Source: an uncultured Alphaproteobacteria bacterium (lineage in GTDB: Bacteria > Pseudomonadota > Alphaproteobacteria > CBDVDY01). Taken from it: a stretch of 42,655 bases of DNA. The position numbers and the translations under genes were made by a program. Below the pieces are notes generated by a model that worked only from the letters and a program-made list of their open reading frames with translations, made no database searches and was not told where the DNA came from. The stretch covers positions 1 to 42,655 of the forward strand of contig CBDVDY010000001.1 of the NCBI GenBank assembly GCA_965372875.1, given 5' to 3'. Positions 24,060 through 40,122 of the stretch are shown here, piece after piece (the stretch's first letter is position 1; the number at the start of each line of letters is the position of its first letter).

Positions 24060-24644
24060 TCAGAGCGCGGCCAAGGACAACGCCTTGGCGCCGGCCGGGC
24101 AGAAGTAGACGCAGCTGCCGCAGCCGGTGCAGTGACTGGCGTGGAATTCGGGCCCGGCGCCGCGGCGATAGGTGACCGCCGTGCCGCCGAGCGGGCAGCG
24201 GTCGAAACAATAATCGCAGTCCGGGTCTATTCCGGCGCGCGCGAAGCAGGCATCGGGCCCGAAGACCAGCCTGGCGATCCGCATTGTCGATGGCGTTACC
24301 GGCCCGAGCGCGCCGGTCGGGCAGGAAGCGGCGCACACCAGCCCGTCGCACATGACGCACGGCGAGTCCGCGGCCACGATTTGCGGCGTGTGGGTCGCCG
24401 CCGCCGTTCCCGCCGCGTCCATCTTGATCGCGTCCGCCGGGCAGGCCTCGGCGCAGTCGCCGCAACCGTCGCACAAGCTCTCGAAACGGTCGGGCGCGGC
24501 CGATCCGGGCGGACGAATAACCGGCGGACCGCCGTCCACCCCTGGCCCCGCCGCCCAGCGGCCGCGCAGAAGATCCCGGCGGGCCACGGTGCGGTCAAGC
24601 GTCGACACGGGATTCTCCGGGCCGCGATCCTGGCATGCCGGCAC
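24060..24644 (-). CDS. NapF-like cytoplasmic poly-ferredoxin (four Cys clusters)
   Basis: RRDLLRGRW...IRPPG N-terminus as in NapF. Clusters CDGCGDCAEACP, CVMCDGLVCAASCP, CDYCFDRCP, CTGCGSCVYFCP. The real start is probably GTG at 24608 or 24587. Confidence 0.7.
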   Translation of the reverse strand: MPACQDRGPENPVSTLDRTVARRDLLRGRWAAGPGVDGGPPVIRPPGSAAPDRFESLCDGCGDCAEACPADAIKMDAAGTAAATHTPQIVAADSPCVMCDGLVCAASCPTGALGPVTPSTMRIARLVFGPDACFARAGIDPDCDYCFDRCPLGGTAVTYRRGAGPEFHASHCTGCGSCVYFCPAGAKALSLAAL

Positions 24645-26133
24645 GCCGGCGCCGTCTCCGGCGCAGCATGGGAATGATGAAGGCGGCGACCGCCGCGAAG
24701 GCCACCGCGAGGCTGGCCAGCAGCCAGAGATTGCCGCCGCCGCGGAGCGTCAACACTGTCCTGGCGGTGACGCCGCCGGCGCCGCCGATACGGATTTCGA
24801 CGTTGTAGGCGGACGCCGGCAGCGAGGCCCGCATCCGATACACGCTCTCCTCGAGCGGTTCGTCGAAGGCGCGCAGCACGGGCGCGCCGCCATCCGTCGG
24901 GCGCAGAGCCACCTCGACCCGGCCCCTGTGCGCCTTGCCGGTCCGCGTGTCGGTGACGGAGACGTAGATCATCGCGTCGCTCGGTATCCCCGACTGGCTG
25001 CGGTTGATGCCGTCCAACGTGTAGGCGACCAGCGTGACCTCGTAGGGTGGCGCGCTGACCTGCACCTCGCGGGTCGGCACTTGCGGGTAGTTTTCGACGT
25101 AGCCGTAGTGGGGCAGGCCCTTGATGTGGTGGGCCAGCGCGTTCGACGGCGGCACCAGCACCGCCAGCAGCGCCAGCAGCGCGGCGAGCCCGGCCGTCGC
25201 GCGCGCGCCACCGGTCCGGGACCGGCGCCCCAGGCCGATTTCCAGGACCTGCGTCGGACAGAGATCGACGCAGGTATTGCACAGCATGCAGCGTTCGACG
25301 TCGATCTCGTCGCGCGGGATGACGGCGACCGGGCAGGCGGCGACACAGGCGTTGCAGCCGGAAAGGCACTCGCCCGATTCCGTGCGCCGTACGCCCCATA
25401 TCCGCCGCCGGCCAACCAGTTCCAGCAGCAGTCCCGTGGGGCACAGGCTTCGGCACCAGATCCGCGGCGCCGCCAGGAGCTCCGAGGCGGCGATGACGGC
25501 CATGAACAGGACGCCGAAACCGACCGCGCCGCCATACACCGCCAGATGCAAGTCGCGGGCCAGACCGGCATAGGGAAGGATGAAGGCAAAAGCGTTGAAC
25601 CCGGCCACGGCGGAAATCAGGAGGCCCGCCGTCAGTACGAGGTAGCGCAGTCCCGGCGGCGCGGCGGCGCCGGGCAGGCGCAACCGGCCACTCCGGCGCT
25701 CAAGCCACGCTCGCAGCGCGGCGTTCATTTCGAGCAACGTATTGACCGGGCAAACCCAGCCACAGAACAGACGCCCGGCCAATGCGGCGACCAGCAGCGG
25801 CACCGCGGCGCCGGCGACGAGCGGCCAATGCACCGAGGCGCTGGCGACCGCGTGCCCGAGCGCGGCCAACGGGTCGTTGATGGTAAATCCAAACAAGGTG
25901 ATCGACCAATATCCGCCGTGAAACAAATCGACCGCCGCGACCGGGCTGTCCAAGCCGCCGAACAGGCGCGCGAACGCGGTGTAAAGGAAACCCGCCCAGT
26001 CGCCGGCCAACGCGCCCACATGCCGCGCGCCCTTGCCGTACGCCTCGTACAGCGCGCTGCCACGCGAAAGCATCGGTAGCGCCAGCAATAGTGCGATGGA
26101 ACTCCACTGGATCGTGCGGCGCAAGGCGTTCAA
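24595..26133 (-). CDS. NapH-like membrane quinol dehydrogenase subunit with a C-terminal extension of about 210 aa
   Basis: FCGWVCPV and WCRSLCPTG membrane CxxxCP motifs. Two ferredoxin motifs: CLSGCNACVAACP and CMLCNTCVDLCP. These are followed by TM / about 140 aa / TM / RRRRRRR. TTG start lies 3 nt after the napG-like stop. Confidence 0.75.
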   Translation of the reverse strand: MNALRRTIQWSSIALLLALPMLSRGSALYEAYGKGARHVGALAGDWAGFLYTAFARLFGGLDSPVAAVDLFHGGYWSITLFGFTINDPLAALGHAVASASVHWPLVAGAAVPLLVAALAGRLFCGWVCPVNTLLEMNAALRAWLERRSGRLRLPGAAAPPGLRYLVLTAGLLISAVAGFNAFAFILPYAGLARDLHLAVYGGAVGFGVLFMAVIAASELLAAPRIWCRSLCPTGLLLELVGRRRIWGVRRTESGECLSGCNACVAACPVAVIPRDEIDVERCMLCNTCVDLCPTQVLEIGLGRRSRTGGARATAGLAALLALLAVLVPPSNALAHHIKGLPHYGYVENYPQVPTREVQVSAPPYEVTLVAYTLDGINRSQSGIPSDAMIYVSVTDTRTGKAHRGRVEVALRPTDGGAPVLRAFDEPLEESVYRMRASLPASAYNVEIRIGGAGGVTARTVLTLRGGGNLWLLASLAVAFAAVAAFIIPMLRRRRRRRAGMPGSRPGESRVDA

Positions 26134-26136
26134 GAT

Positions 26137-26709
26137 TCAAACCCGTCTTGGCGTGATACGGATCGCCTGCGGCAAGTGGATACAGGCGCGTTCGCAACTG
26201 CCGCAACCGACGCACTGTTCGGCGTCCACAACGGGGCGGGCGCCGGCCTTGAGTTTCAGCGCCTTGTCGGGAAACGGGCAGGCGTAATAGCACACGCCGC
26301 ATGTGCGGTTCGCATAGGAGTAGCACAAATCCTCGTTGACGATCGCGGTCCCCATGTGGACCGATTCCAAGATCGATTCGGCATTGTTGGCGATTGGGGT
26401 CAGCGCATCGGTGGGGCAGGCATCGGCGCAGCGCATGCACAGGATGCAGGCCTGCTCGCGCGGCCGGATCAAGGGTACGTAGGCCCGGGCGGGTCCCGCT
26501 TCCGGCGCCTCGAACTGGATGCACTGGTTCGGGCAGACGCTGCCGCACTGGAAACAGCGGATGCAGGCCGCCAGGAAGTCCTCTTCGGGCAAGGCGCCGG
26601 GCGGTCGAAGCGGCGCGGCCTCCGCCGGCCGCGCGCCGCGCAGGAACCAACCCGTGGCGACCGAGCCCACGGCGGTAAGCGCCAGAGCCAGCGCCCGCCG
26701 CCGATTCAT
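26137..26709 (-). CDS. NapG-like periplasmic (Tat-exported) poly-ferredoxin
   Basis: MNRRRALAL twin-arginine signal. LRPPGALPEEDFLAACIRCFQCGSVCP as in NapG. Four Cys clusters. ATG at 26707-26709(c); the maximal ORF reaches 26739. Confidence 0.8.
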   Translation of the reverse strand: MNRRRALALALTAVGSVATGWFLRGARPAEAAPLRPPGALPEEDFLAACIRCFQCGSVCPNQCIQFEAPEAGPARAYVPLIRPREQACILCMRCADACPTDALTPIANNAESILESVHMGTAIVNEDLCYSYANRTCGVCYYACPFPDKALKLKAGARPVVDAEQCVGCGSCERACIHLPQAIRITPRRV

Positions 26710-26752
26710 GCCGCCGCCGTCTCCGGTTGCGTCGCCCACGTTGGCCCCCGTC

Positions 26753-29482
26753 CTACGCGATTTTCTCGATCCGCGCCTTCAGGTGCTTGAAATCCGCTTG
26801 CCCGGAGACGGGATCGAACAGGCGGCTGGACACCTCGTTGACCAGCCAGCGGTTCTTTTTCGGGTCGGCGCTGTCCGCCACCGAAAGATTCCACGGGGAG
26901 AATATCTGTCCGGACATGACCAGATTGCGCGCCGGCCGCACCTTGGAGTTGGTGCCGATCGAGGTCCGCGCCTCGTAGAAGCAGTTCTTTCCGGTTTCGG
27001 GGTCGATGCGCGGCGTCACGATCCGCACCCATTCTCCGTCCTCGATGTCCCAGCGTTGGGCGTCTTCGGCGTTGACCTCCACGTACATCTCCGGGACCAG
27101 CCGCCTGGTCGTCGGCGAGCGAATGGTCTTGGCGGTGTGGAAGTGCTCGAACACGACGCCGAGGTTCAGCCACAACGGAAATTTGCCGCCTTTCGCCTGT
27201 TCCTTGAGCGGCATTTCGAACGCGTCGAAGTCGGGGAGTTCCGGCGGCAGCCCATTGTCGCGGATCTCCTTCAAAACATCCAGATGATCGGTGACCAACG
27301 CGTCCGGGCTGGTGCCGATCTTCTCGACCTTGGCCAGGATTTCCTTGGCCCGGGAATAATCCTGCTCGCACAGCTTGAACCGCGCGCGGCCGTCCGCGTG
27401 CGGGAAATAGCCGTAGGGCCGGTCTTCCCATCCGGTTTCCTGATTGCCGTATTTCCGTTTCAGCCCGCCGGCCTTGGCCACCGCGTAGTTGGGTGCCGGA
27501 TAGAACAGGCCCTTGGTCTCGCGCAGCGATTCATAGGGGCTTGTTTTTTCACGTTCCTCGAGTTCGGCGAGGCCCGAGATATCGGTCTTGGTGCCCTTCG
27601 AAGCCTTGAGGATGTTCCGGAACACGTCCTCCGGATCGTAGAATCCCTCGTGCACCCCCTCGGTCGCCTTCTTGTAGGGGAACACCTTGTCGGGATCGAG
27701 GCCCAGCCGCTTCGCCACCTCGCGGCCCTCGCCGATGATGATGTCGAGGTCCGGCCTGGTATTGGGCGGGCAGGGCACCGCCTTGTCGGTGACGTAGATA
27801 CGCCGTTCCGAGTTTTGGTAGGTACCGCCCTTTTCACCGAAGGTGGCCGCCGGCAGCACCAGATCGGCGTACAGCAGGTTGGGCGCGTGGCGGTAGCTTT
27901 CGGTCGCCACCACGAACATATTCCGTAACGCCGGCCGCAACAGCGACTTGACCTCGGGCATGTCGATGTGCGTGGCGTAGGAATATTTGAGCATCTTCAA
28001 ATCGCCCTTCAGGGCCCGTTCCATCATGCCCACGGCGAAGCCCACGTTCTTTTGCTTGGCGGTCTTCGCCAAACGGCTCGGCGAGACGCCCCAAGCCTTG
28101 GCGATGTAGTCGCGATGCGCCTTGTTGTTCATGCCTTCGTTAAACGGCAGACGGCCGGTAAGCCCACCCATCAGCCGTTCCGACATGGCGTTTGGCTGGC
28201 CGGTCATCGAGAACGGGCCGGCGCCGGGCCGGGCGATGTCGCCGGTCAGCAGGTGCAGATTGATCAGCGAGAGCACATTGTGCTGGCCGTGGATCGACTG
28301 GTTCCAGCCGCCGATGCCCCAGAACGAGAGCACGCCACCCTTGCCGCGGGCCCGGCCTTTCATCGACGCCTCGGCCCAGGTTTTGGCCAGCTGGCGCACC
28401 AGCGCCGGCGCCAGCCCGGTTCGATCGATCACCTGATCCGGGCTGTAGCGGGCCATAACGCCCTCACGATATTTTTCGAATCCCTTGGTGTGCGAGGTAA
28501 CGAACTTGCTGTCGATGGCGTCCGGGAAATCCTTGAGCAACACATGGGCAATGGCGTTGACCAGCGAGATGTCGCCGTTCGGCTTGATGGTGATATTGAG
28601 CGAATTGGTGGGATTGATCTGGTGCAAACCGTCCATCGTGCCGGTGTAACGCGGATCCACGACCATCGTGGGTATTCCGCGTTTTTCCTTTTCGGCGATC
28701 ACCCGCCAATACAGCACGGAGTGCGAACCGCGGGCGTTGTGGCCGAAGAAATTGATCATGTCGGCGGTTTCGATGTCCTCGTAGCAGCCCGGCGGGTGGT
28801 CGCTGCCGAGCGCGGCGAAATAGCCGGCGACCGCGGAGGTCATGCACATGCGGGCGTTGGCCTCGATGGAGTTCGACTGCAGCACCGCCTTGACGAACTG
28901 GTTCTCCAGCCATTGTTCTTCCATGGTCAGCTGGCCGGAGCCGTATGTGCCGATGGCATTGCCGCCGAACTTCTTGACGATACCGACGGTCATATCGACC
29001 AGGAGGTGCGACGCCTCTTCCCAGGTGACCTCGCGCCACACGTCGTCGTCAAAGCTGCCCTTCGTTTTCGACAGGTGTCCGGTCAGCGGGTTGGTCATGT
29101 CCTTGCGGACGAGTACCTTGTTCAGCCGGTCGACGTCGATGGCCTCGGCCGCGGTCAACCCCTTGATGCATTGCATGCCCAGGTTGACGGTGCTGTCCTT
29201 GTCGGGCACCGAGGCGACGATGCGTCCGTTCCGTACGACCAGGTAGCTGTGGCAGCCGACACCGCAATAGGGGCACTGGGTCGGCACCAAAGTCTGCTCG
29301 TCGCCGGACTCGGCGGCCGCCGCCGAGGCACCCTTGAAGTCGAACACCCAATTATCGCGCACCATGCCAAAGGTGCCGATGCCGGCGCCGATAGCGGCGG
29401 CGCCGCCGCGCATAAATCCTCGCCGGTTGACCTTCGCTTCGTCCAGTCCCAACCATTCACCCGACTTTGAATCTTTCGTCAT
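26753..29482 (-). CDS. Periplasmic molybdopterin (bis-MGD) oxidoreductase, NapA/NasA/Fdh clade, substrate unknown (909 aa)
   Basis: Tat motif NRRGFMRGG. [4Fe-4S] motif CPYCGVGC...GMQCIKG. NapA-like Mo-ligand context ANARMCMTSAVAGY, plus TGQPNAMSER and LPAATFGEKGGTYQNSERR. AAGGAG 6 nt before the ATG at 29480-29482(c). Confidence 0.85.
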   Translation of the reverse strand: MTKDSKSGEWLGLDEAKVNRRGFMRGGAAAIGAGIGTFGMVRDNWVFDFKGASAAAAESGDEQTLVPTQCPYCGVGCHSYLVVRNGRIVASVPDKDSTVNLGMQCIKGLTAAEAIDVDRLNKVLVRKDMTNPLTGHLSKTKGSFDDDVWREVTWEEASHLLVDMTVGIVKKFGGNAIGTYGSGQLTMEEQWLENQFVKAVLQSNSIEANARMCMTSAVAGYFAALGSDHPPGCYEDIETADMINFFGHNARGSHSVLYWRVIAEKEKRGIPTMVVDPRYTGTMDGLHQINPTNSLNITIKPNGDISLVNAIAHVLLKDFPDAIDSKFVTSHTKGFEKYREGVMARYSPDQVIDRTGLAPALVRQLAKTWAEASMKGRARGKGGVLSFWGIGGWNQSIHGQHNVLSLINLHLLTGDIARPGAGPFSMTGQPNAMSERLMGGLTGRLPFNEGMNNKAHRDYIAKAWGVSPSRLAKTAKQKNVGFAVGMMERALKGDLKMLKYSYATHIDMPEVKSLLRPALRNMFVVATESYRHAPNLLYADLVLPAATFGEKGGTYQNSERRIYVTDKAVPCPPNTRPDLDIIIGEGREVAKRLGLDPDKVFPYKKATEGVHEGFYDPEDVFRNILKASKGTKTDISGLAELEEREKTSPYESLRETKGLFYPAPNYAVAKAGGLKRKYGNQETGWEDRPYGYFPHADGRARFKLCEQDYSRAKEILAKVEKIGTSPDALVTDHLDVLKEIRDNGLPPELPDFDAFEMPLKEQAKGGKFPLWLNLGVVFEHFHTAKTIRSPTTRRLVPEMYVEVNAEDAQRWDIEDGEWVRIVTPRIDPETGKNCFYEARTSIGTNSKVRPARNLVMSGQIFSPWNLSVADSADPKKNRWLVNEVSSRLFDPVSGQADFKHLKARIEKIA

Positions 29483-29485
29483 GAT

Positions 29486-30214
29486 CTACTCCTTGGGAGC
29501 GAGGCTTCTGAGATAGGCGACGATGTCGTCGATCTCGTATTCGCGTAGTTCGACGAATCCTTGGCGGCCTTTGAGATACGCTCCCATCGGCGTGCCGACC
29601 CGGCCATACATAAGTGTCGCTTTGATGTATCCGTCGGTGGCTGATTTCAGGAACCCCGGGTCGGCCAACGCCGGCCCGCCGATGCCCGAGACAGCGCCGA
29701 TGACGTGGCCACCGCCGGCGTTCGGGCCGCCTTGCCCTTCCAGCCCGTGGCAGCCCGCGCACAACCCCTTGAACAGGGCGTGGCCTTCGCCGGCGTCGCC
29801 GTCAATGGTTCCATTCGCGATCTCGACGCTGGGCTGGTACTGCCAGCTCTTGATGTACAGGGCGACCGCGCGCATATCGTTCTCGCTCATTTCCTCGGCG
29901 AACGACGGCATGCCGCGCACCGGGCGGCCGTGTCGCATGCTGCGCATCAGATAGCCGAAATCGGCGATTACCAGGAACGACTGAAGATTGAGCGGCAGCC
30001 CCATTCCGCCGCGGCCGTGTTCACCGTGGCAGGCGGCGCAGTTCTCTTCAAACAACATTTGCCCGCGCGAGTAATATTGGTTCCAGCCGCTGTCGCGGGT
30101 GAACACTTGTGGGGCCGTGCCGGCGCCGCTTTGAGCGCTGGCGGCGGTTGCGGCAATTGTAAATACAGCCGCGGCGACGGCCAACGCCGCGCGGCGAACG
30201 CTGCTACGATTCAT
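29486..30214 (-). CDS. Diheme class I c-type cytochrome, Sec-exported (242 aa)
   Basis: Internal ATG at 30212-30214(c). Signal peptide MNRSSVRRAALAVAAAVFTIAATAASA. Two CxxCH motifs (CAACH, CAGCH), each with a downstream Met region (RGMPSF, GTPMGAY). TAG stop lies 3 nt before the molybdoenzyme ATG. Confidence 0.85.
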   Translation of the reverse strand: MNRSSVRRAALAVAAAVFTIAATAASAQSGAGTAPQVFTRDSGWNQYYSRGQMLFEENCAACHGEHGRGGMGLPLNLQSFLVIADFGYLMRSMRHGRPVRGMPSFAEEMSENDMRAVALYIKSWQYQPSVEIANGTIDGDAGEGHALFKGLCAGCHGLEGQGGPNAGGGHVIGAVSGIGGPALADPGFLKSATDGYIKATLMYGRVGTPMGAYLKGRQGFVELREYEIDDIVAYLRSLAPKE

Positions 30215-30415
30215 GATTGTTCCCCCAGTGGATCCATGGGTCGTGACGCAATACCTGTGACCCGTTGTCCACCCCTGATCGTCCCTGTCTCGATGATCTG
30301 GCAGGGTATAGTGGGGTACATGAGTCAAGCAGGCGCGAATGTCAAGAAAACCGGTCATGGAAAACCGGGAACCCCGACGGCGCGGCGGGCCGCCGCTTTG
30401 CCCCGTCCGGCGGCC

Positions 30416-34389: not shown

Positions 34390-36477
34390 TCAGCGTCCCT
34401 CGCGCCTCCAGGCGAGCAGGAGAGCGGCCAGCGCAAGCACCAGCACCAACACGCCGGGCAGGACCGGCACCTGGCGGATGCCGGTCACGATATAATCGCC
34501 GTTGGCGCGCAAACCGATCCAGCCCTGTTTGCCCAAACGGTTCCTGCCCGCGACCTCGCGTCCCGGGCGGACTCGGCGGATCTCGGGAAACGATTCCTCC
34601 GCCAGCCAAATCACGCCGCCGCCGCTCGCCGCGATCACTGGCGCGAGCCGCTCGTCGGTCGCGCGCATGTCGGCCACTTCGCGTGGGTTGAGCGTGCCCG
34701 CCGCGACCATCGTCGCCCGGCTATGATCGCGAACTCGGTAAAGGCCGGGCGAATCCACGGCGACGCTGCCGGTGGCCCGCCCGCGGCCGATCTCCTCCAA
34801 CTCCAGCGTCCGCACTTCTCCGGACGGCGCGGTGATTTCGACCGGGCCGTTGTCCGGCAGGAGACTTCGTCTCGTGACCTCCAAGCGGCCGCCGCGAACC
34901 TCGGCGCGCAGATCGTTCTCTTCGAGTTCAGGCTCCTTCATCAGCCAGTGCGCCAGCCGCCGCAACAGCTCCGCCTGCGGCCCGCCGCCTTCGAACCCGC
35001 GGCCCCAAAGCCAGATCTGATCGCTCATGAACTGCGCGACCCGGCCCTCGCCGACCCGGTCGAGAATGAGCAGCGGCCGGCCCTCGGCCCCGGTCATCAA
35101 CGTGTCGCCGCGATCGACGGTGGCGTCGATCAGGCGGAACCAGCGGCCCCACCGACGCTCCTTTCCCGTCACCCCCGGAAGCTCGGCGGTCACCGGGTGG
35201 CGCAAACCCTTGGCCGCGACCTCGGCCCGGAACCCGCCGACGCGCACGTCGCCGGTCGGCCGGCCGGGCAGGATAGGTTGCAGCGGCGTGCGGTAGAGTG
35301 AGAGCGGCGTGGCGAACGCGGGGCCCACCGCGACCAGAAGCGCGCCGCCGCGCTCCACATACTGGGCGACGTTGCCGATATAACGCGACAGGATGACGCC
35401 GCGCCGCCGGTAGCGGTCGAAAATGATGAGATCGAATTCCTCCAGCCGCGCCTCGAACAGCTCGCGGGTCGGGAAGCTGATCAGCGACAACTCGTCCACC
35501 GGCGTTCGGTCCTGTTTTTCCGGCGGCCGGAGAATGGTGAAATGGACCAGATCGACCGCCGGATCGGATTTCAGCAGGTTCCGCCAGCTGCGTTCGCCCG
35601 GGTGCGGCTCGCCCGATATGAGCAGGACCCGCAAACGATCGCGAACGCCGTTGACGGCGACGACGGCGGTATTGTTGGCGCTGGACAATTCGCCAGGTAC
35701 GGCTTCGACTTCGAGCTCGAAATAGGTCGTACCGGCGTGGTCGAGCTGGATTTCGACCTTGCGCTCTTGCCCGACCGGAACTCTCAACGCGCGCCACGTC
35801 TTGCCGTCGCGCCGGAGGTTGATGCGCGCCAACTCGCCATTGCCGCCGGGCAGATCGTCGACCCGCACGGTCATTTCGAGCGGCTTGCCGACGAGGCCGT
35901 AGTTGGGCGCCTGGACCACGACCAGCCGGCGATCGCCCCTGTTCGGGTCGCCGCTGATCAAGGCATGGAACGGACTGTAGCGGGCGCGATCAGCCTGCTC
36001 GTCGGGCACGTCGTGAACCTGCCCGTCGGTAATCATGACGATGCCGGCGAGGCGCCGCTCCGGCAGCTCGGAAAGCGCCCGCGCGAGATCGCCGAACAGT
36101 TGGGTGCCGTCGCTGCCGCCCGACCCTTTTCCCGCGCGCACGACCCGTAGCTCGAGATCGGGGAAGCGATCGACGGCCGCGCGGAGCCGGGCCAGCGCCG
36201 CTTCGCTTTGCCGCCGTCTCTGGCCGATGTCCTGGCTTGGCGACTCGTCGACGACAGCGATCGCTATGTCGGGGAGCGCTTCGCGCTGTTCCAGAACGAG
36301 CGAAGGGTTGGCCAACGTCAACAGCAAAACCGCCGCGGCCAGCAGCCTCCAGCCCAGCCCGGACGCGCGCACGTAAAACGTATAGCCGAGAACCAGGGCC
36401 GTCGCGGCCGCGAGGGCGGCCAGCGCCGTCCATGGCAAAAGAGGCGCGAAGGCGGCGCTGGCTTCCATGCCGCTCAT
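34390..36477 (-). CDS. Membrane protein with a VWA-like domain and a GATase1-like domain (fourth gene of the MoxR block)
   Basis: Two N-terminal TM helices. MIDAS-like VVDESPS ... ITDG. A final C-terminal TM. ATGA overlap with the upstream gene (36474-36477). Confidence 0.8.
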   Translation of the reverse strand: MSGMEASAAFAPLLPWTALAALAAATALVLGYTFYVRASGLGWRLLAAAVLLLTLANPSLVLEQREALPDIAIAVVDESPSQDIGQRRRQSEAALARLRAAVDRFPDLELRVVRAGKGSGGSDGTQLFGDLARALSELPERRLAGIVMITDGQVHDVPDEQADRARYSPFHALISGDPNRGDRRLVVVQAPNYGLVGKPLEMTVRVDDLPGGNGELARINLRRDGKTWRALRVPVGQERKVEIQLDHAGTTYFELEVEAVPGELSSANNTAVVAVNGVRDRLRVLLISGEPHPGERSWRNLLKSDPAVDLVHFTILRPPEKQDRTPVDELSLISFPTRELFEARLEEFDLIIFDRYRRRGVILSRYIGNVAQYVERGGALLVAVGPAFATPLSLYRTPLQPILPGRPTGDVRVGGFRAEVAAKGLRHPVTAELPGVTGKERRWGRWFRLIDATVDRGDTLMTGAEGRPLLILDRVGEGRVAQFMSDQIWLWGRGFEGGGPQAELLRRLAHWLMKEPELEENDLRAEVRGGRLEVTRRSLLPDNGPVEITAPSGEVRTLELEEIGRGRATGSVAVDSPGLYRVRDHSRATMVAAGTLNPREVADMRATDERLAPVIAASGGGVIWLAEESFPEIRRVRPGREVAGRNRLGKQGWIGLRANGDYIVTGIRQVPVLPGVLVLVLALAALLLAWRREGR

Positions 36478-39200
36478 TGCCCGAGCCGTTCCAGGATCGC
36501 CGGCACGTGCACCTGGTCGGACTTGTAATTGCCGGTCAGCGCGTACATCACCAGATTGATGCCGCTCCTGAAGGCGTATTCGCGCTGGTCCTCGCCGCCC
36601 GGGACGACCGCGAACAGCGGACGGTCGTCGTCGCCGGTGGCCCAGGCGCCGCCCCAGTCGTTCGTGCTGACCACGACCGAAGAGACACCGTCATTGACGT
36701 CTCGCCTGGCGCGTTCGACCCATACCGTGCCGCCCGCCCAGCGGCCCGGAAACTGGCGCAGCAGGTAAAATGTCTTGGTCAGCACGTGGCCATCGGGAAT
36801 CGGCGTCAGCTGCGGGATGTGCAGTCCGCGCGTAAGACGCCGGAGCTCGCGCGTGCCCGGCTGGCCCAGCCCGCCCGAGCGGTCGCGCACGTCGAGCACC
36901 AGGATACCGCCGCTGGAAATGAACCGGTTGAGCCGTTCCGCGGCGGCCGGAGACGGCGGTGTCTGGCCGGACGTGATTGGCCAATAGACGAGGGGAAAGA
37001 AGATCAGTTCGTCGAATTCCGGGTCGACCGCCATGGGCGCGCCCGGTTCGACCGAGGTGCGCGTCCGCAGCATCCAGCGCAGGCCCCTGAGCGCGGCCTC
37101 GGAAATCCTGTCGATTTCGGCATCGCCGGTGAGCAGATAGGCGAGATGGGTCTCGCCGGTAGCCGCGAGCGCGAACGCGTCGCCGTCGCGATCGCCCGGT
37201 TCCTCGGCGTCCGCGGGCGCGGCCGGAAGCAGGACCAGCGCCGCGACAATGGCTGACGTGGCCGCCACGGCGCCGGCCGATCCCGAGCGCAATCCTCGAA
37301 ATGCCAATGAAATCACCAGATCCGCAAGCATCAGCAGCAGCGCCGCGGCCATCAGCCAGGGCATCAGATCGAATTCGCGTTCAAGGCCGTAGAAGCCGCG
37401 CGCGACGCCCGAGGGCAAATCACCGAGCGGCCCGATATCGGTCAACCCGGCGGAGAGGTTGAGGCTGCGTCGGACGGCCTCGGTGCCATAAAATCCCGGC
37501 GGGTGGCGCGGGCGGGCGAAGGTCTTTTCGAAGGAAGCGGCCGGGATCGCGGCCGCCGTCGCGGGCGCCCGTTGCAGGCGCCCGAACCCGTCCAGGGTTT
37601 CCACCGGCGGCAGGCTGCCCTCGGCGTCGCCCGCGGCCACGCCTTGGCTCAGTCCAACGAGCCGCCGCAGCATGTCGACGAACAGGCCCGAGAGCGTGAG
37701 GTTGGACCAGCCGGTGTTGGCGGTGGTGTGCAGCAGGACCAGCCAGCCCCGACCACGCCGCTCGGCGGTCACCAGCGGCGTGCCATCGGTCAGCCGGGCC
37801 CAGGTCTTCTTTCCGAGATCGGCCGCCGGTTCCGCCAGCACTTGCCGCCGGATCACCACATCCTCGGGAATGGCGAGGCCGGCGAACGGGCTGGACGGCT
37901 CGAACCGCGCAAGCCGCATCGGCTGGGTCCACGACATGCTTCCGCCGAACGTGCGGTCGCCGCGGCGCAGGCGCACCGGAACCAGTTCGTCGTCGGCCTC
38001 GGCGAGGCGCGGTCCGGCAAACCGGACGACCACGCCGCCCGATTGCAACCAGTCGGTGATGCGCGACCGCGCGGATCCGGTGATCGGTCCGGGATCGGCC
38101 AGGATCAGCACCGAAAGCGGCCGCGCGAGAAGCTCGGCGGCGTTGCCGCGGCGCACTTCGCCGTAAGGACCCAGCGCGCGCTCCAGGTAGTAGGCCTCGC
38201 TCAGCAGCGGATGGCCGGTAAGCGCCGACCCTGTCACCAAGCCGATCGGGCGGCGGCGCCAGCGCTCGTCCAGCAGCACCAGCGACGCGGCCGTGCGCTG
38301 GCCCTCCACCTCCAGCCGCGCGACCCGGTTGCGCAGTTCCGACGGCAGTTCCAGCGCGGCGTCGGCGCTTGACGACCCCGGCGCGAAGCGAACCTCGCGG
38401 CGGGCCAGCACCCGACCGTTGTCGGCCATCGCCCGCACCCATACAAGCGCCGGGCCATCGGACCCGACGCGCAGAAGCCGCGCGCCGAGTTGTGTGCCTT
38501 CGATCACCGGCGGCAGCATCACCACCGGCCGGTCTTCCGGCGCGTCGACAATGACGCGCAGCGAGCCAAGACGTTGCAGCCGCTCGGCGAGATTCGCCGC
38601 CGCCTCATCGTCGATACCGTCGCTCAGCCAGACGGCATTGGCGGAGCCGGGTATTTCGAGCCGCTCCAGCGCGGCGGCGGCGGCGGCGCGGTCGGTCGGC
38701 CATGGCAGCGGGACAAGCGCCCGCGCCAAGGTCCGCGCGTCGGTGGCGCGCAAGAGCTTGCTGGCTTCCAACGGCGCCTCTTCGCTGCTCCGCGCGGTGG
38801 CCAGCAGAATAACCGGCCGTTGCGCCCGTTCGGCCTGTGCCAGAAGCTCGCCGATCTCCTGCTCGCGGGCGGGCCAATCGGCCGCCGCGGCCCAACCATT
38901 GTCGACCACCAGAACCAGCGGGCCGCTGCCCGTGAACTCGGCGCCCGGGTTCAGGATCGGCCGGGCCAGGCCGACTATGATCAGCGCCGCCAGCACCGTT
39001 CGCAGGATCAGCAGCCACAGCGGCGTGTGCGCCGGGGTCTCTTCCTTCTGTCGCAACCCGAACAGGAGTCGGACGGCGGGAAACCGGATCAGCCGGGGCG
39101 TCGGCGGCGTCACCCGCAACAGCCACCACAACACCGGCAGGACCGCGAGCGCGAGCAGAATCCACGGGCTGGCAAAGGCCAATGGTCCGAGGCTCAGCAT
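36474..39200 (-). CDS. BatA_N (aerotolerance-regulator N-terminal double-TM) / DUF4159 family membrane protein, 908 aa
   Basis: MLSLGPLAFASPWILLALAVLPVLWWLLRVTPP N-terminus. C-terminal DUF4159-like REYAFRSGINLVMYALTGNYKSDQVH. Confidence 0.8.
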   Translation of the reverse strand: MLSLGPLAFASPWILLALAVLPVLWWLLRVTPPTPRLIRFPAVRLLFGLRQKEETPAHTPLWLLILRTVLAALIIVGLARPILNPGAEFTGSGPLVLVVDNGWAAAADWPAREQEIGELLAQAERAQRPVILLATARSSEEAPLEASKLLRATDARTLARALVPLPWPTDRAAAAAALERLEIPGSANAVWLSDGIDDEAAANLAERLQRLGSLRVIVDAPEDRPVVMLPPVIEGTQLGARLLRVGSDGPALVWVRAMADNGRVLARREVRFAPGSSSADAALELPSELRNRVARLEVEGQRTAASLVLLDERWRRRPIGLVTGSALTGHPLLSEAYYLERALGPYGEVRRGNAAELLARPLSVLILADPGPITGSARSRITDWLQSGGVVVRFAGPRLAEADDELVPVRLRRGDRTFGGSMSWTQPMRLARFEPSSPFAGLAIPEDVVIRRQVLAEPAADLGKKTWARLTDGTPLVTAERRGRGWLVLLHTTANTGWSNLTLSGLFVDMLRRLVGLSQGVAAGDAEGSLPPVETLDGFGRLQRAPATAAAIPAASFEKTFARPRHPPGFYGTEAVRRSLNLSAGLTDIGPLGDLPSGVARGFYGLEREFDLMPWLMAAALLLMLADLVISLAFRGLRSGSAGAVAATSAIVAALVLLPAAPADAEEPGDRDGDAFALAATGETHLAYLLTGDAEIDRISEAALRGLRWMLRTRTSVEPGAPMAVDPEFDELIFFPLVYWPITSGQTPPSPAAAERLNRFISSGGILVLDVRDRSGGLGQPGTRELRRLTRGLHIPQLTPIPDGHVLTKTFYLLRQFPGRWAGGTVWVERARRDVNDGVSSVVVSTNDWGGAWATGDDDRPLFAVVPGGEDQREYAFRSGINLVMYALTGNYKSDQVHVPAILERLGQ

Positions 39201-39216
39201 GGCAACCCGTCGTCCG

Positions 39217-40122
39217 TCATCGCAGCAGCGCGCCCGACATGATCATGTACAGGGCGAGCAAGGCCGTCTCCGGCGGCTGGTGGCTGTGGTGCCGGGTGAA
39301 CGACCAGCCGACGTGCCGGCAGATCGATTCCAGCCCGTCGACATGGGCGCCGAGCCGCGCGCGATATTCCGCGCGGGCGCTTTCCACCCGGCGCACCAGC
39401 ACGTCGCCTTCTCCCTCCAATCCTTCGAACCGGGTCCGCCCGCGGAAGGGCAGGTCCTCCTCCGCCGGATCCAGAACTTGCAGCAGATGTCCATTGACGC
39501 CGCGTCCGGCGAAGCGGCGCACGAGGTCGTTGGTCTCCTCGATCGGCGCCAGGAAATCTCCGATCAGCACGAGGTGAGCGTGCCGCGGCAAGGGCTCGAA
39601 TCCGGGCAGATCCCCGCCGCCACCCTCGGCGGCCTTGAATCGTCGTTCGTCGAGCACGGAGTGGGCGAGGCGTTCGAGGGTTGCGCGGCCGCTCGACGGC
39701 ACCGATCCGTCGCCCAGGAGTGCGATGTGCTCGCCGGCGCGCACCAGGAGCGACGCCAGCGCCAGCAGCAGCAAATCCGCGCGCTCGCGTTTCTCCGGCA
39801 GATCGTCGGCGGAGGCGTAGCGCATCGACGCCGAAACATCGCACCACAACCAGATGCTCTGCGCGGCCTCCCACTCGGTTTCCCGCACGAACAGGTGGCG
39901 GGTCTTGGCCGACTGACGCCAGTCGATCATCTGCGCCGAATCGGTCGATTCGTAGCGGCGGAACTGCCAGAACGTCTCGCCCTGGCCGACGCGGCGCCTG
40001 CCGTGCACGCCTTGCGCGATGGTCGAGGCGACGCGCTCGGCGGCGACCAGGAGCGGCGGCAGCCCGGCGGCGATTTCCTCGGCGCGGTGCCGCGAGAGTT
40101 GCAGATTCGCGCTCGTCGCCAT
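39217..40122 (-). CDS. DUF58 domain protein (VWA-related partner of MoxR ATPases)
   Basis: GVHGRRRVGQGETFWQFRRYESTDSAQMIDWRQSAK and WLWCDVSASM motifs. Confidence 0.85.
   Translation of the reverse strand: MATSANLQLSRHRAEEIAAGLPPLLVAAERVASTIAQGVHGRRRVGQGETFWQFRRYESTDSAQMIDWRQSAKTRHLFVRETEWEAAQSIWLWCDVSASMRYASADDLPEKRERADLLLLALASLLVRAGEHIALLGDGSVPSSGRATLERLAHSVLDERRFKAAEGGGGDLPGFEPLPRHAHLVLIGDFLAPIEETNDLVRRFAGRGVNGHLLQVLDPAEEDLPFRGRTRFEGLEGEGDVLVRRVESARAEYRARLGAHVDGLESICRHVGWSFTRHHSHQPPETALLALYMIMSGALLR

What the first reader, a model, noticed from the sequence alone, without database searches (positions are those of the whole stretch)
24060..30214. Nap-like five-gene operon with a non-canonical electron-transfer module (cyt c - A - G - H - F; no NapB, NapC or NapD)
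The five minus-strand genes are packed with 3-44 nt gaps or overlaps. They encode a Sec-exported diheme cytochrome c, a Tat-exported NapA-family bis-MGD enzyme, a NapG-like Tat ferredoxin, a NapH-like membrane subunit and a NapF-like poly-ferredoxin. Described Nap systems pair NapA with the bis-His diheme NapB and the chaperone NapD, and draw electrons from NapC and/or NapGH. None of NapB, NapC or NapD is encoded here or in the flanking genes. A class I cytochrome in the NapB position suggests either a new route to a nitrate-type reductase or a different, possibly oxidative, substrate chemistry that couples to both the quinone pool (GH) and soluble cytochrome c. The flanking genes (a fatty-acyl-CoA ligase and a sugar epimerase) give no substrate hint.
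Basis: partly seen in the sequence, partly recalled or inferred. Interest (0 to 1): 0.8.

Follow-up and report, generated by a model that had tools for sequence, protein, structure and literature searches.

The report
Uncharacterised Nap-like molybdoenzyme operon
This is a real five-gene operon for a periplasmic molybdenum enzyme related to, but clearly outside, the known periplasmic nitrate reductases; it is most likely a respiratory nitrate reductase, it belongs to a widespread gene cluster for which I found no published study, and its substrate is untested.

Summary
The five minus-strand genes are there as described: a diheme class I cytochrome c, a Tat-exported Mo-bisPGD enzyme "A" of 909 aa, a NapG-like and a NapH-like protein, and a NapF-like ferredoxin. 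No NapB, NapC or NapD is found in the window.

A is not a bona fide NapA. It scores 304 bits against a curated cut-off of 904. In a bootstrapped NJ tree the NapA clade excludes it in 100 of 100 replicates. 236 relatives share their own signature: CPYCGVGC, RMCMTSA, WGIGxNQ, GQPNAMxER, EHFHT.

The order cyt c-A-G-H is conserved across many bacterial phyla, one MAG labelled archaeal and three cultured genera (Photobacterium, Shewanella, Thiohalobacter). Other members add NapC/NirT, Rieske/cytochrome b with 6-10-heme cytochromes, Moco-biosynthesis genes, a NarXL-like pair and FNR-like boxes. This context points to an anaerobic, quinol-fed terminal reductase.

A keeps the Cys-Met and Arg residues of nitrate reductases and lacks the His and Arg of formate dehydrogenases. 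Nitrate is therefore the best guess (about 0.55), but it is unproven.

I found no paper describing this family. The verdict is a new variant of a known kind, of moderate interest.

The parts
29486..30214 (-). Sec-exported diheme class I cytochrome c (242 aa), the proposed periplasmic redox partner of A
   Evidence: It has two CxxCH motifs and a signal peptide. Pfam hits are Cytochrom_C and Cytochrome_CBB3 only, and there is no NapB similarity. A cytochrome c gene lies directly upstream of A in 17 of 21 loci in the clustering (one more, L002, shown), with heme counts from a single domain up to 10.
26753..29482 (-). Tat-exported Mo-bisPGD/[4Fe-4S] catalytic subunit A (909 aa), from a distinct family related to Nap and Nas nitrate reductases
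   Evidence: Pfam domains are. It falls below every NCBIfam cut-off: NapA 304 vs 904, Fdh-alpha 327 vs 666. The best solved-structure match by sequence and by fold is D. desulfuricans NapA at 27% identity, TM-score 0.90 normalised to the target. The AlphaFold2 model has pLDDT 87.8. It forms its own clade with its own invariant motifs.
26137..26739 (-). NapG-like Tat-exported ferredoxin (200 aa), read as four [4Fe-4S] clusters
   Evidence: It scores 121.7 bits against NapG (cut-off 269) and 110.7 against MauM/NapG (cut-off 178.85). It has Tat motif NRRRALAL and 17 Cys in three full CxxCxxCxxxC motifs plus one Cx3CP. It lies directly after A in nearly all related loci.
25234..26133 (-). NapH-like membrane quinol-dehydrogenase core (H residues 1 to about 300)
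   Evidence: It scores 126.5 bits against NapH/MauN (cut-off 213). It has two Cx3CP motifs between hydrophobic segments and two further Cys motifs.
24595..25233 (-). X module fused to H. It consists of a helix ending in AxA, the motif HHxxGxPxY, a beta-rich periplasmic domain of about 120 aa, a C-terminal TM helix and an Arg-rich tail. Function is unknown.
   Evidence: It has no Pfam hit. It is homologous to stand-alone ORFs of about 200 aa, each starting with a hydrophobic signal-like segment, in L005, L007, L010, L011, L013, L017, L019 and L020, and it is fused to H in L001, L006, L009, L089 and L090. A single-sequence model predicts a beta-sandwich at pLDDT 64, with only weak generic fold matches.
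24060..24644 (-). NapF-like cytoplasmic poly-ferredoxin (194 aa, or 182 aa from the GTG at 24608)
   Evidence: It scores 68.1 bits against NapF (cut-off 102.2) and 79.9 against MauM/NapG. It has 17 Cys, the N-terminal motif RRDLLRGRW like E. coli NapF, and no hydrophobic region. In one close relative's contig H is 690 aa with no separate F gene after it, which I read as an H-X-F fusion; the sequence could not be checked.
30215..30415 (-). Upstream intergenic region holding the presumed operon promoter, preceded by a terminator-like hairpin at 30351-30368 that ends the epimerase gene
   Evidence: The sequence is and the hairpin followed by a T-run. No FNR or NarL consensus was found here.

Best explanation
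The operon encodes a periplasmic, membrane-associated respiratory reductase built around a Mo-bisPGD/[4Fe-4S] subunit. This subunit belongs to a distinct, uncharacterised sister family of the Nap and Nas nitrate reductases. Nitrate reduction to nitrite is the most likely reaction.

Inferred mechanism:
1. A is loaded with cofactors in the cytoplasm, possibly helped by the NapF-like ferredoxin, and is exported by Tat.
2. Electrons leave the quinol pool through the NapH-like membrane protein and pass to the Tat-exported NapG-like ferredoxin.
3. They then reach the [4Fe-4S] cluster of A and the molybdenum centre, either directly or through the diheme class I cytochrome c.
4. The cytochrome c also offers a second entry point from cytochrome bc-type or NapC/NirT quinol dehydrogenases. 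These are encoded next to the cluster in other members but not in this window.

Shown: the gene content, export signals, cofactor motifs, separate family status and conserved synteny. Inferred: the direction of electron flow, the order of carriers and the substrate.
For: Anatomy and motifs.

A is NapA-like in fold and active site. D. desulfuricans NapA is the best match by sequence and by structure. A keeps the Mo-ligand Cys followed by Met, the Lys between the FeS cluster and the pterin, and the Arg equivalent to DdNapA Arg354. These are near-invariant in 236 relatives (Cys-Met 229 of 236). A lacks the His after Cys and the Arg333 of FdhF.

A is a separate family. It falls below all curated cut-offs. 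Scores in the 1.84-billion-protein library drop from 889/805 bits to 481. The NapA clade excludes the family in 100 of 100 bootstraps, and the family core is monophyletic in 85 of 100.

The order cyt c-A-G-H is conserved in 20-odd loci from many phyla.

A reductive, anaerobic setting in other members:
- NapC/NirT in 5 loci of the clustering, plus an abundant marine population.
- Rieske/cytochrome b with 8-10-heme cytochromes in 5 loci.
- MoaA, MoaC, MoeA and MobA-like genes.
- Crp/Fnr-family regulators.
- A divergent NarX/NarL-like pair in L017, where NarL scores 292 bits against a cut-off of 250.
- A perfect FNR box in L011.

Precedent: Nap systems without NapB or NapC that do carry out nitrate respiration.
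Against: - No activity or expression data exist for any member.
- No nitrite reductase, nitrate transporter or other nitrogen-cycle gene is recurrently linked in the roughly 10-kb flanks, and none is in this window.
- The family differs from all NapA and Nas sequences at conserved positions. DdNapA Met308 is Ile. The acidic residue after the catalytic Arg is Leu or Phe. The pterin-patch Arg-Val-x-x-His-Trp-His of EcNapA reads Val-Val-x-x-His-Phe-His.
- Two conserved accessory proteins with no Nap counterpart (X, and the roughly 510-aa NapH-like Y in other loci) and a recurrent DUF255 thioredoxin-like neighbour are unexplained.
- One cultured host is a Shewanella, a genus in which two canonical Nap systems have been described for another species. 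A third enzyme could therefore serve another substrate.
- The NarXL link is one locus, and the FNR boxes are few and absent from this window.
Confidence: 0.55

Rival explanations
1. The architecture and reductive direction are the same, but the physiological substrate is another high-potential oxyanion, such as chlorate or perchlorate, selenate, iodate, tellurate or arsenate. The family would then be a new reductase specificity that evolved from a nitrate-reductase ancestor.
For: The family-specific substitutions lie at or near positions that are conserved in NapA and Nas, including Met308, the residue after Arg354, and the pterin patch. The family is a discrete clade with a large score gap. 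Extra conserved accessory genes (X, Y) and a periplasmic thioredoxin-like DUF255 protein occur in 6 loci; the latter could deal with a reactive product. NapA itself is promiscuous towards chlorate and perchlorate. No nitrite-handling genes are linked.
Against: No chlorite dismutase, arsenic, selenium or iodine genes recur among gene families shared by at least 3 loci. The catalytic Cys-Met and Arg of nitrate reductases are retained. A NarXL-type nitrate/nitrite sensor pair flanks one locus. Nitrate is by far the most available of these acceptors in the marine and sediment habitats where the family is common.
Confidence: 0.2
2. It is simply a divergent NapA operon. NapD and NapB, or other canonical partners, are encoded elsewhere in the genome, so nothing is mechanistically different from known Nap.
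For: Only 42.7 kb of this genome is visible. NapD is small and hard to detect by BLAST. The fold and key residues are NapA-like. JGI annotation calls some members NapA.
Against: A scores about one third of the NapA cut-off, and even small monomeric NapA-like proteins score about 750 bits. The NapA clade excludes the family in 100 of 100 bootstraps. A class I cytochrome c gene sits directly upstream of A in 17-18 of the 21 loci first compared (and in L089-L094 seen afterwards), which argues that it, not NapB, is the partner. No NapB or NapD hit appears in 22 related loci. Close relatives keep the same five genes in unrelated flanks.
Confidence: 0.1
3. It is an oxidative enzyme, for example a nitrite, arsenite or sulfur-compound oxidase. 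It would pass electrons to the class I cytochrome c and, through G and H, to quinone.
For: Class I His/Met cytochromes c are typical acceptors of periplasmic oxidising molybdoenzymes (my general knowledge). The substrate is unknown.
Against: NapGH, NapC/NirT and Rieske/cytochrome b modules are described as quinol-oxidising electron donors in Nap and Nos systems. The family lacks the formate dehydrogenase His and Arg, and the Rieske genes in related loci belong to Rieske/cytochrome b complexes, unlike the Rieske partner of arsenite oxidase (my recollection). Crp/Fnr regulators, FNR boxes and a NarXL-like pair point to anaerobic induction. No terminal oxidase genes are linked.
Confidence: 0.07

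Closest known systems
Epsilonproteobacterial NapAGHBFLD system (Wolinella succinogenes, Campylobacter jejuni)
   Same: The gene order A-G-H...F is shared. NapGH acts as the quinol dehydrogenase, there is no NapC, the catalytic subunit is large (about 925 aa in C. jejuni), and a diheme cytochrome is the proximal donor. In C. jejuni nitrate respiration is coupled to the menaquinol:cytochrome c reductase.
   Different: Here the cytochrome is a class I (CcoP-like) protein encoded upstream of A, not NapB. No NapD or NapL was detected. A fails the NapA model and lies outside the NapA clade. An X module is fused to H.
Desulfovibrio desulfuricans-type monomeric Nap (napCMADGH) and the Caldithrix abyssi nap cluster
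   Same: NapB is absent and an alternative c-type cytochrome (NapM) is encoded next to napA. NapG is proposed to feed NapA directly. In C. abyssi NapC is also absent and Rieske/cytochrome b genes sit inside the cluster, as in 5 loci of this family. DdNapA is the best structural match.
   Different: NapM is a tetraheme cytochrome, not a class I cytochrome. The D. desulfuricans-type operon includes napD. Small NapA-like proteins score about 750 bits on the NapA model and group with the NapA clade, whereas this protein scores 304 bits and does not.
NosGH plus NosC1/C2 electron-supply module of Wolinella-type nos clusters
   Same: A NapG/NapH-like quinol dehydrogenase is paired with c-type cytochromes to feed a periplasmic terminal reductase. 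That NosC1/C2 are small class I cytochromes is my recollection.
   Different: The terminal enzyme there is the copper enzyme NosZ, not a molybdoenzyme. Homology of the cytochromes to the one here was not tested.
Assimilatory nitrate reductases NasA/NarB
   Same: They share the CPYCGVGC FeS motif, the Cys-Met Mo-ligand motif and the GQPNAM(G) loop, at about 30% identity. They are the best tblastn hits on plasmids.
   Different: Nas enzymes are cytoplasmic (stated). This protein has a Tat motif and periplasmic partners. It scores 243-244 bits against cut-offs of 1000-1100 and forms a separate clade.

Membership tests
NapA (periplasmic nitrate reductase catalytic subunit) | Scores above the curated NCBIfam equivalog cut-offs (NF010055, TIGR01706) | tested here: not met
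   304.1 bits against 904 and 283.2 against 930.55. Family representatives score 286-400 bits.
NapA (periplasmic nitrate reductase catalytic subunit) | Groups within the NapA clade in a phylogeny | tested here: not met
   In an NJ tree of 80 sequences and 697 columns, the NapA clade is monophyletic without the family in 100 of 100 bootstraps. The family core is monophyletic in 85 of 100. The sister group is unresolved. The tree is distance-based only, not maximum likelihood.
NapA (periplasmic nitrate reductase catalytic subunit) | Tat signal, N-terminal [4Fe-4S] motif, Mo-ligand Cys followed by Met, and the Arg equivalent to DdNapA Arg354 | tested here: met
   The motifs are NRRGFMRG, CPYCGVGC, RMCMTSAV and GQPNAMSE-R. 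They are near-invariant in 236 relatives (RMCMTSA 229 of 236, Tat motif 217 of 236).
NapA (periplasmic nitrate reductase catalytic subunit) | Conserved pterin-binding patch Arg-Val-x-x-His-Trp-His (EcNapA 720-726) and DdNapA Met308 | tested here: not met
   The family has G-V-V-Y-E-H-F-H-T, so Arg becomes Val and Trp becomes Phe. It has WGIG where NapA and Nas have W(T/S/C)MG.
NapA (periplasmic nitrate reductase catalytic subunit) | Nitrate reductase activity | not testable with these tools
   No biochemical or genetic data were found for any member.
Canonical Nap operon | Co-encoded NapD chaperone and NapB diheme (bis-His) cytochrome | tested here: not met
   tblastn with E. coli NapD and NapB finds nothing in the window or in 22 related loci. 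The cytochrome has no NapB Pfam hit. Sensitivity for NapD is low, and the rest of the genome was not visible.
NapG / NapH / NapF | Scores above the curated NCBIfam cut-offs | tested here: not met
   G scores 121.7 against 269, H scores 122.5 against 234 (subfamily model 126.5 against 213), and F scores 68.1 against 102.2. Architecture and motifs nevertheless match: a Tat-exported multi-cluster ferredoxin; a membrane protein with two Cx3CP motifs and two further Cys motifs; and a cytoplasmic poly-ferredoxin with RRxLLxGRW.
Formate dehydrogenase (FdhF/Fdh-alpha) | (Seleno)cysteine followed by His, and the catalytic Arg333 (E. coli FdhF) | tested here: not met
   The Cys is followed by Met, and FdhF Arg333 aligns with Thr. 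The score is 327 bits against a cut-off of 666.
Assimilatory nitrate reductase (NasA/NasC/NarB) | Cytoplasmic enzyme without a Tat signal; scores above the curated cut-offs | tested here: not met
   A Tat motif is present (217 of 236 relatives) and the partners are periplasmic. Scores are 243-244 bits against cut-offs of 1000-1100.

The most novel reading that the evidence does not exclude
The family is not a nitrate reductase. It would be a widespread, environmentally abundant periplasmic molybdoenzyme with a new substrate specificity, either another oxyanion or an oxidative reaction. It would be served by a dedicated module (class I cytochrome c, G/H, the HHxxGxPxY protein X and the NapH-like protein Y) that has no described counterpart.
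Probability: 0.25. Interest if true: 0.8.

Novelty: new variant of a known kind. Interest (0 to 1): 0.5.

Why it matters
The family has well over a thousand 90%-identity clusters. It is found in bacteria assigned to Alpha- and Gammaproteobacteria, Myxococcota, Planctomycetota, Gemmatimonadota, Calditrichota, Kiritimatiellia, Hydrogenedentota and Sericytochromatia, and in one MAG labelled archaeal. One marine population carries an identical protein on more than 100 contigs.

Sources name it inconsistently: "molybdopterin-dependent oxidoreductase", "ferredoxin-nitrate reductase", "NapA", "assimilatory nitrate reductase" or "selenocysteine-containing dehydrogenase".

- If it reduces nitrate, surveys based on napA or narG miss or miscount a common route into denitrification and DNRA.
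- If it does something else, it is a new respiratory enzyme.

Three cultured hosts make the question directly testable.

Tried and rejected
- Looking up the window's own contig for its precomputed gene calls failed, because the protein is not on record.
- tblastn of A against plasmids found no family member, only Nas/Nap-type hits at or below about 30% identity.
Only 15 of the 80 loci were family members, and the window's own species was not retrieved.
- The word-index search with the X module found a single near-identical protein. X was therefore modelled without an alignment, at pLDDT 64. Its fold matches are weak and generic, such as ApaG, FN3, CrdA and FetP. I draw no conclusion from them.
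- FNR and NarL consensus scans upstream of the cytochrome gene were negative for the window and positive in only a few loci.
- The sigma-70 promoter scan gave nothing convincing upstream of the operon.
- Six literature searches and ten papers read or searched yielded no description of this family.
- The formate dehydrogenase reading was rejected on active-site residues. The arsenite oxidase reading was rejected because the Cys ligand is present (notes that AioA has no amino-acid ligand) and because the Rieske genes in related loci belong to Rieske/cytochrome b complexes.
- The Nas reading was rejected because of the Tat signal and the periplasmic partners.


Full report

Yes. Five ORFs lie head to tail on the minus strand between 24060 and 30214. 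The spacings are 3, 13 and 3 nt, and the last two genes overlap by 50 nt, or by 14 nt if F starts at the GTG at 24608. A terminator-like hairpin at 30351-30368 closes the upstream epimerase gene. The first gene starts at the ATG at 30214, 6 nt after GGGGGA. The downstream acyl-CoA ligase gene is convergent. The five genes therefore form a unit of their own.

The products are as follows:
- A Sec-exported cytochrome with two CxxCH motifs. It matches only the class I Pfam families (Cytochrom_C, Cytochrome_CBB3).
- A 909-aa protein, here called A, with a Tat motif (NRRGFMRG) and the three Pfam domains of Mo-bisPGD enzymes.
- A Tat-exported ferredoxin, G, with 17 Cys that I read as four clusters.
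- A membrane protein, H, with two Cx3CP motifs between hydrophobic segments and two further Cys motifs.
- A 17-Cys ferredoxin, F, without an export signal. Its N-terminus (RRDLLRGRW) resembles that of E. coli NapF (RRGILTGRW).

tblastn with the E. coli Nap proteins recovers A, G, H and F, but nothing for NapB, NapC or NapD anywhere in the 42.7-kb window. The rest of the window encodes housekeeping functions: acetyl-CoA synthetase, phosphofructokinase, PntAB, an ABC1 kinase, a porin and BatA/DUF58 proteins. It holds no nitrogen-cycle genes.

**2. What is the catalytic subunit?**

It is a relative of the nitrate reductases, but not a NapA.
- Against NCBIfam it scores 304 bits on the NapA equivalog (cut-off 904), 327 on Fdh-alpha (cut-off 666) and about 244 on Nas models (cut-offs 1000-1100).
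- The best solved relative is D. desulfuricans NapA, by sequence (E = 4e-70) and by fold. An AlphaFold2 model with pLDDT 87.8 superposes on 2NAP with a target-normalised TM-score of 0.90 at 27% identity.
- In a library of 1.84 billion cluster representatives, scores fall from 889 and 805 bits for the two full-length family representatives to 481, 388 and then about 300 or less. The nearest outsiders themselves pass no curated cut-off. Small NapA-like ones score about 750 bits on the NapA model.
- In an NJ tree rooted on E. coli FdhF, the family forms its own clade, apart from NapA and from Nas/NarB. In 100 bootstraps the NapA clade is monophyletic without the family every time, and the family core is monophyletic 85 times. 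Its sister group is unresolved. This is a distance tree, and a maximum-likelihood analysis is still needed.

**3. Active-site reading**

Aligned to DdNapA and EcNapA, the family keeps several features of nitrate reductases:
- the Lys between the FeS cluster and the pterin (CIKG);
- the Mo-ligand Cys followed by Met (RMCMTSAV);
- the Arg equivalent to DdNapA Arg354.

It lacks the His after the (seleno)cysteine and the Arg333 of FdhF. Formate dehydrogenase chemistry is therefore unlikely.

It also differs from every NapA and Nas sequence in the alignment:
- WGIG replaces W(T/S/C)MG, so DdNapA Met308 becomes Ile.
- The loop reads GE-R-L/F instead of GG-R-E or TA-R-E.
- The pterin patch that the 2026 Nap review lists as conserved (Arg720, Val721, His724, Trp725, His726 in EcNapA) reads G-V-V-Y-E-H-F-H-T.
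- There is an extra C-terminal insert (LSVADSADPKKNKW).

These signatures are invariant or nearly so in 236 full-length relatives. They define a family under its own constraint. They do not look like a decaying NapA.

**4. Is the gene order conserved?**

Strongly. The order cytochrome c - A - G - H is found in all of the following:
- close Rhodospirillales-like relatives at 79-82% identity, where the same five genes sit in unrelated flanks;
- a MAG labelled Hydrothermarchaeales, with a cytochrome of a single c-type domain;
- MAGs of Sericytochromatia, Phycisphaerae, Planctomycetaceae, Gemmatimonadales, Calditrichaceae, Gallionellaceae and Hyphomicrobiaceae;
- the cultured Photobacterium frigidiphilum, Shewanella eurypsychrophilus and Thiohalobacter sp. 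IOR34;
- a marine gammaproteobacterial population whose identical protein is recorded on more than 100 contigs.

An all-against-all comparison of the ORFs of 21 loci gives these counts:
- The cytochrome family occurs in 18 loci and lies directly upstream of A in 17 of them (one search shows the same for L002). Heme counts are 2 in most loci, 6 in L005 and 8-10 in five others.
- G/F-type ferredoxins occur in 19 loci and H in 18.
- A second, NapH-like protein Y of about 510 aa occurs in 12.
- NapC/NirT occurs in 5, confirmed by Pfam and NCBIfam.
- Rieske and cytochrome b genes plus an FeS-flavoprotein occur in 5, always with the long multiheme cytochrome.
- A DUF255 thioredoxin-like protein occurs in 6.
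- Moco-biosynthesis genes occur in about 4.

No nitrite reductase, nitrate transporter, chlorite dismutase or arsenic or selenium gene recurs.

**5. Which way do electrons flow?**

NapGH, NapC/NirT and Rieske/cytochrome b complexes are described as quinol dehydrogenases that feed periplasmic reductases. Their repeated presence next to A points to an anaerobic terminal reductase rather than an oxidising enzyme. Further signs point the same way:
- Crp/Fnr-family regulators;
- a perfect FNR box upstream of the cytochrome gene in L011, and near-perfect ones in L017 and L090;
- Moco genes.

In L017 a two-component pair is divergently transcribed from the cluster. Its regulator passes the NarL equivalog cut-off (292 vs 250 bits). 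Its kinase aligns along the full length of NarX (379 bits) and also matches NarQ (389 bits), both below cut-off. This is a single locus, but it is the only substrate-specific hint found, and it points to nitrate or nitrite. In the window itself no such site or regulator was found.

**6. Proposed mechanism**

Shown: the parts, their export signals and cofactor motifs, and their conserved linkage.

Inferred:
1. H oxidises quinol and passes electrons to the periplasmic ferredoxin G.
2. G reduces the FeS cluster of A, either directly (as proposed for D. desulfuricans and C. abyssi NapG) or through the class I cytochrome.
3. The cytochrome also accepts electrons from bc-type or NapC/NirT complexes where these are present.
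4. F stays in the cytoplasm, like NapF. In one close relative's contig H is 690 aa with no separate F gene after it, which I read as an H-X-F fusion. That would place F at the cytoplasmic face of H.
5. The substrate is most likely nitrate.

**7. An unexplained part**

The last roughly 200 residues of H (window 24595-25233) are not part of NapH. They are homologous to a stand-alone ORF of about 200 aa in at least eight other loci. That protein starts with a hydrophobic signal-like segment ending in AxA, followed at once by an invariant H-H-x-x-G-x-P-x-Y motif. A domain of about 120 aa predicted to be a beta-sandwich comes next, then a C-terminal TM helix with a basic tail. It has no Pfam match. 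Its fold matches are weak and generic. Its role is unknown.

**8. Comparison with what is known**

The 2026 review lists four nap operon types: napEDABC, napDAGHB, napCMADGH and napAGHBFLD. None matches this one.

The closest analogues are:
- the epsilonproteobacterial napAGHBFLD system (same A-G-H...F order, no NapC);
- the NapB-less D. desulfuricans system, and the NapB- and NapC-less C. abyssi system, the latter with Rieske/cytochrome b genes in the cluster.

The pairing of c-type cytochromes with a G/H module is described for Wolinella nos genes. So the wiring logic is familiar. What is new:
- the catalytic family;
- the constant class I cytochrome partner;
- the absence of any detectable NapD or NapB;
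- the accessory proteins X and Y.

Six full-text searches, and ten papers read or searched, turned up no description of this family. The papers included two superfamily-wide phylogenies and a 2025 NapA phylogeny.

**9. Verdict**

This is a non-canonical Nap-like system, and A is outside bona fide NapA. The oxidative idea has no support, and the absence of NapB and NapC has precedent.
- Best explanation: a respiratory periplasmic reductase of a distinct Nap/Nas-related family, probably for nitrate (confidence about 0.55).
- Novelty: a new variant of a known kind.
- Interest: moderate (0.5). It would be higher if the substrate proves not to be nitrate.

Noticed in passing
window 24595-25233 (minus strand); L020 15208-15795; L011 15285-15923; L017 15129-15737: A conserved, unannotated membrane-anchored periplasmic module has an invariant HHxxGxPxY motif right after a signal-peptidase-like AxA site. 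It is fused to the NapH-like protein in the window and is a separate gene of about 200 aa in many other loci. It has no Pfam match.
   Followed up: partly
window 24595-24644: H and F overlap by 50 nt as called. A GTG at 24608 would give a 182-aa F, matching the 178-185 aa of relatives L089 and L090, which have a 4-nt overlap. In the contig of P0014 (82% identical A) H is 690 aa with no separate F gene, apparently an H-X-F fusion. One of these versions may carry a frameshift.
   Followed up: partly
L020 15792-18712; L091 15679-17801; L092 14904-17025: Most non-alphaproteobacterial members carry a second module that is absent from the window. It consists of a NapH-like membrane FeS protein of about 510 aa (44.7 bits against NapH/MauN) followed by another ferredoxin, and in some loci NapC/NirT.
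   Followed up: partly
L002 324-2138; L020 6565-8919; L011 6368-8791; L013 4748-6877; L008 14609-16099: A DUF255 (Thioredox_DsbH) thioredoxin-like protein neighbours the cluster in 6 of 21 loci from distant taxa. In Photobacterium it also has a DsbD_N domain. The reason for the link is unknown.
   Followed up: no
L017 6361-8940: A NarX/NarL-like two-component pair is divergently transcribed from the cluster in one gammaproteobacterial MAG. NarL scores 292 bits against a cut-off of 250. The kinase has the PilJ-HAMP-HisKA_3 architecture.
   Followed up: yes
L092/L093/L094 (protein P0382): An identical 894-aa family member is recorded on more than 100 contigs and in 216 index blocks of marine metagenomes. 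Its operon is NapC/NirT - cyt c - A - G - H - X - Y - ferredoxin, from an abundant and unnamed gammaproteobacterial population.
   Followed up: partly
L002 13120-16518 and L003 4873-8271: In the MAG labelled Hydrothermarchaeales, the cluster is followed by a 1132-aa protein that combines a cytochrome c assembly domain (Cytochrom_C_asm) with FrhB/FdhB N- and C-terminal domains. This is an unusual fusion.
   Followed up: no
window 34390-40122 (minus strand): A BatA/DUF4159 protein (908 aa), a 695-aa protein with no Pfam hit and a DUF58 protein form a tight gene run resembling Bat/MoxR-type aerotolerance operons. It is unrelated to the finding.
   Followed up: no
L010, L011, L013, L015, L020 (A proteins): A proteins assigned to Gallionellaceae, Hyphomicrobiaceae, Motiliproteus, Photobacterium and unnamed Gammaproteobacteria sit on very short branches together. 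The Hyphomicrobiaceae and Motiliproteus proteins are about 83% identical to the Photobacterium one. This suggests recent horizontal transfer of the cluster among marine bacteria, or mis-binning.
   Followed up: no
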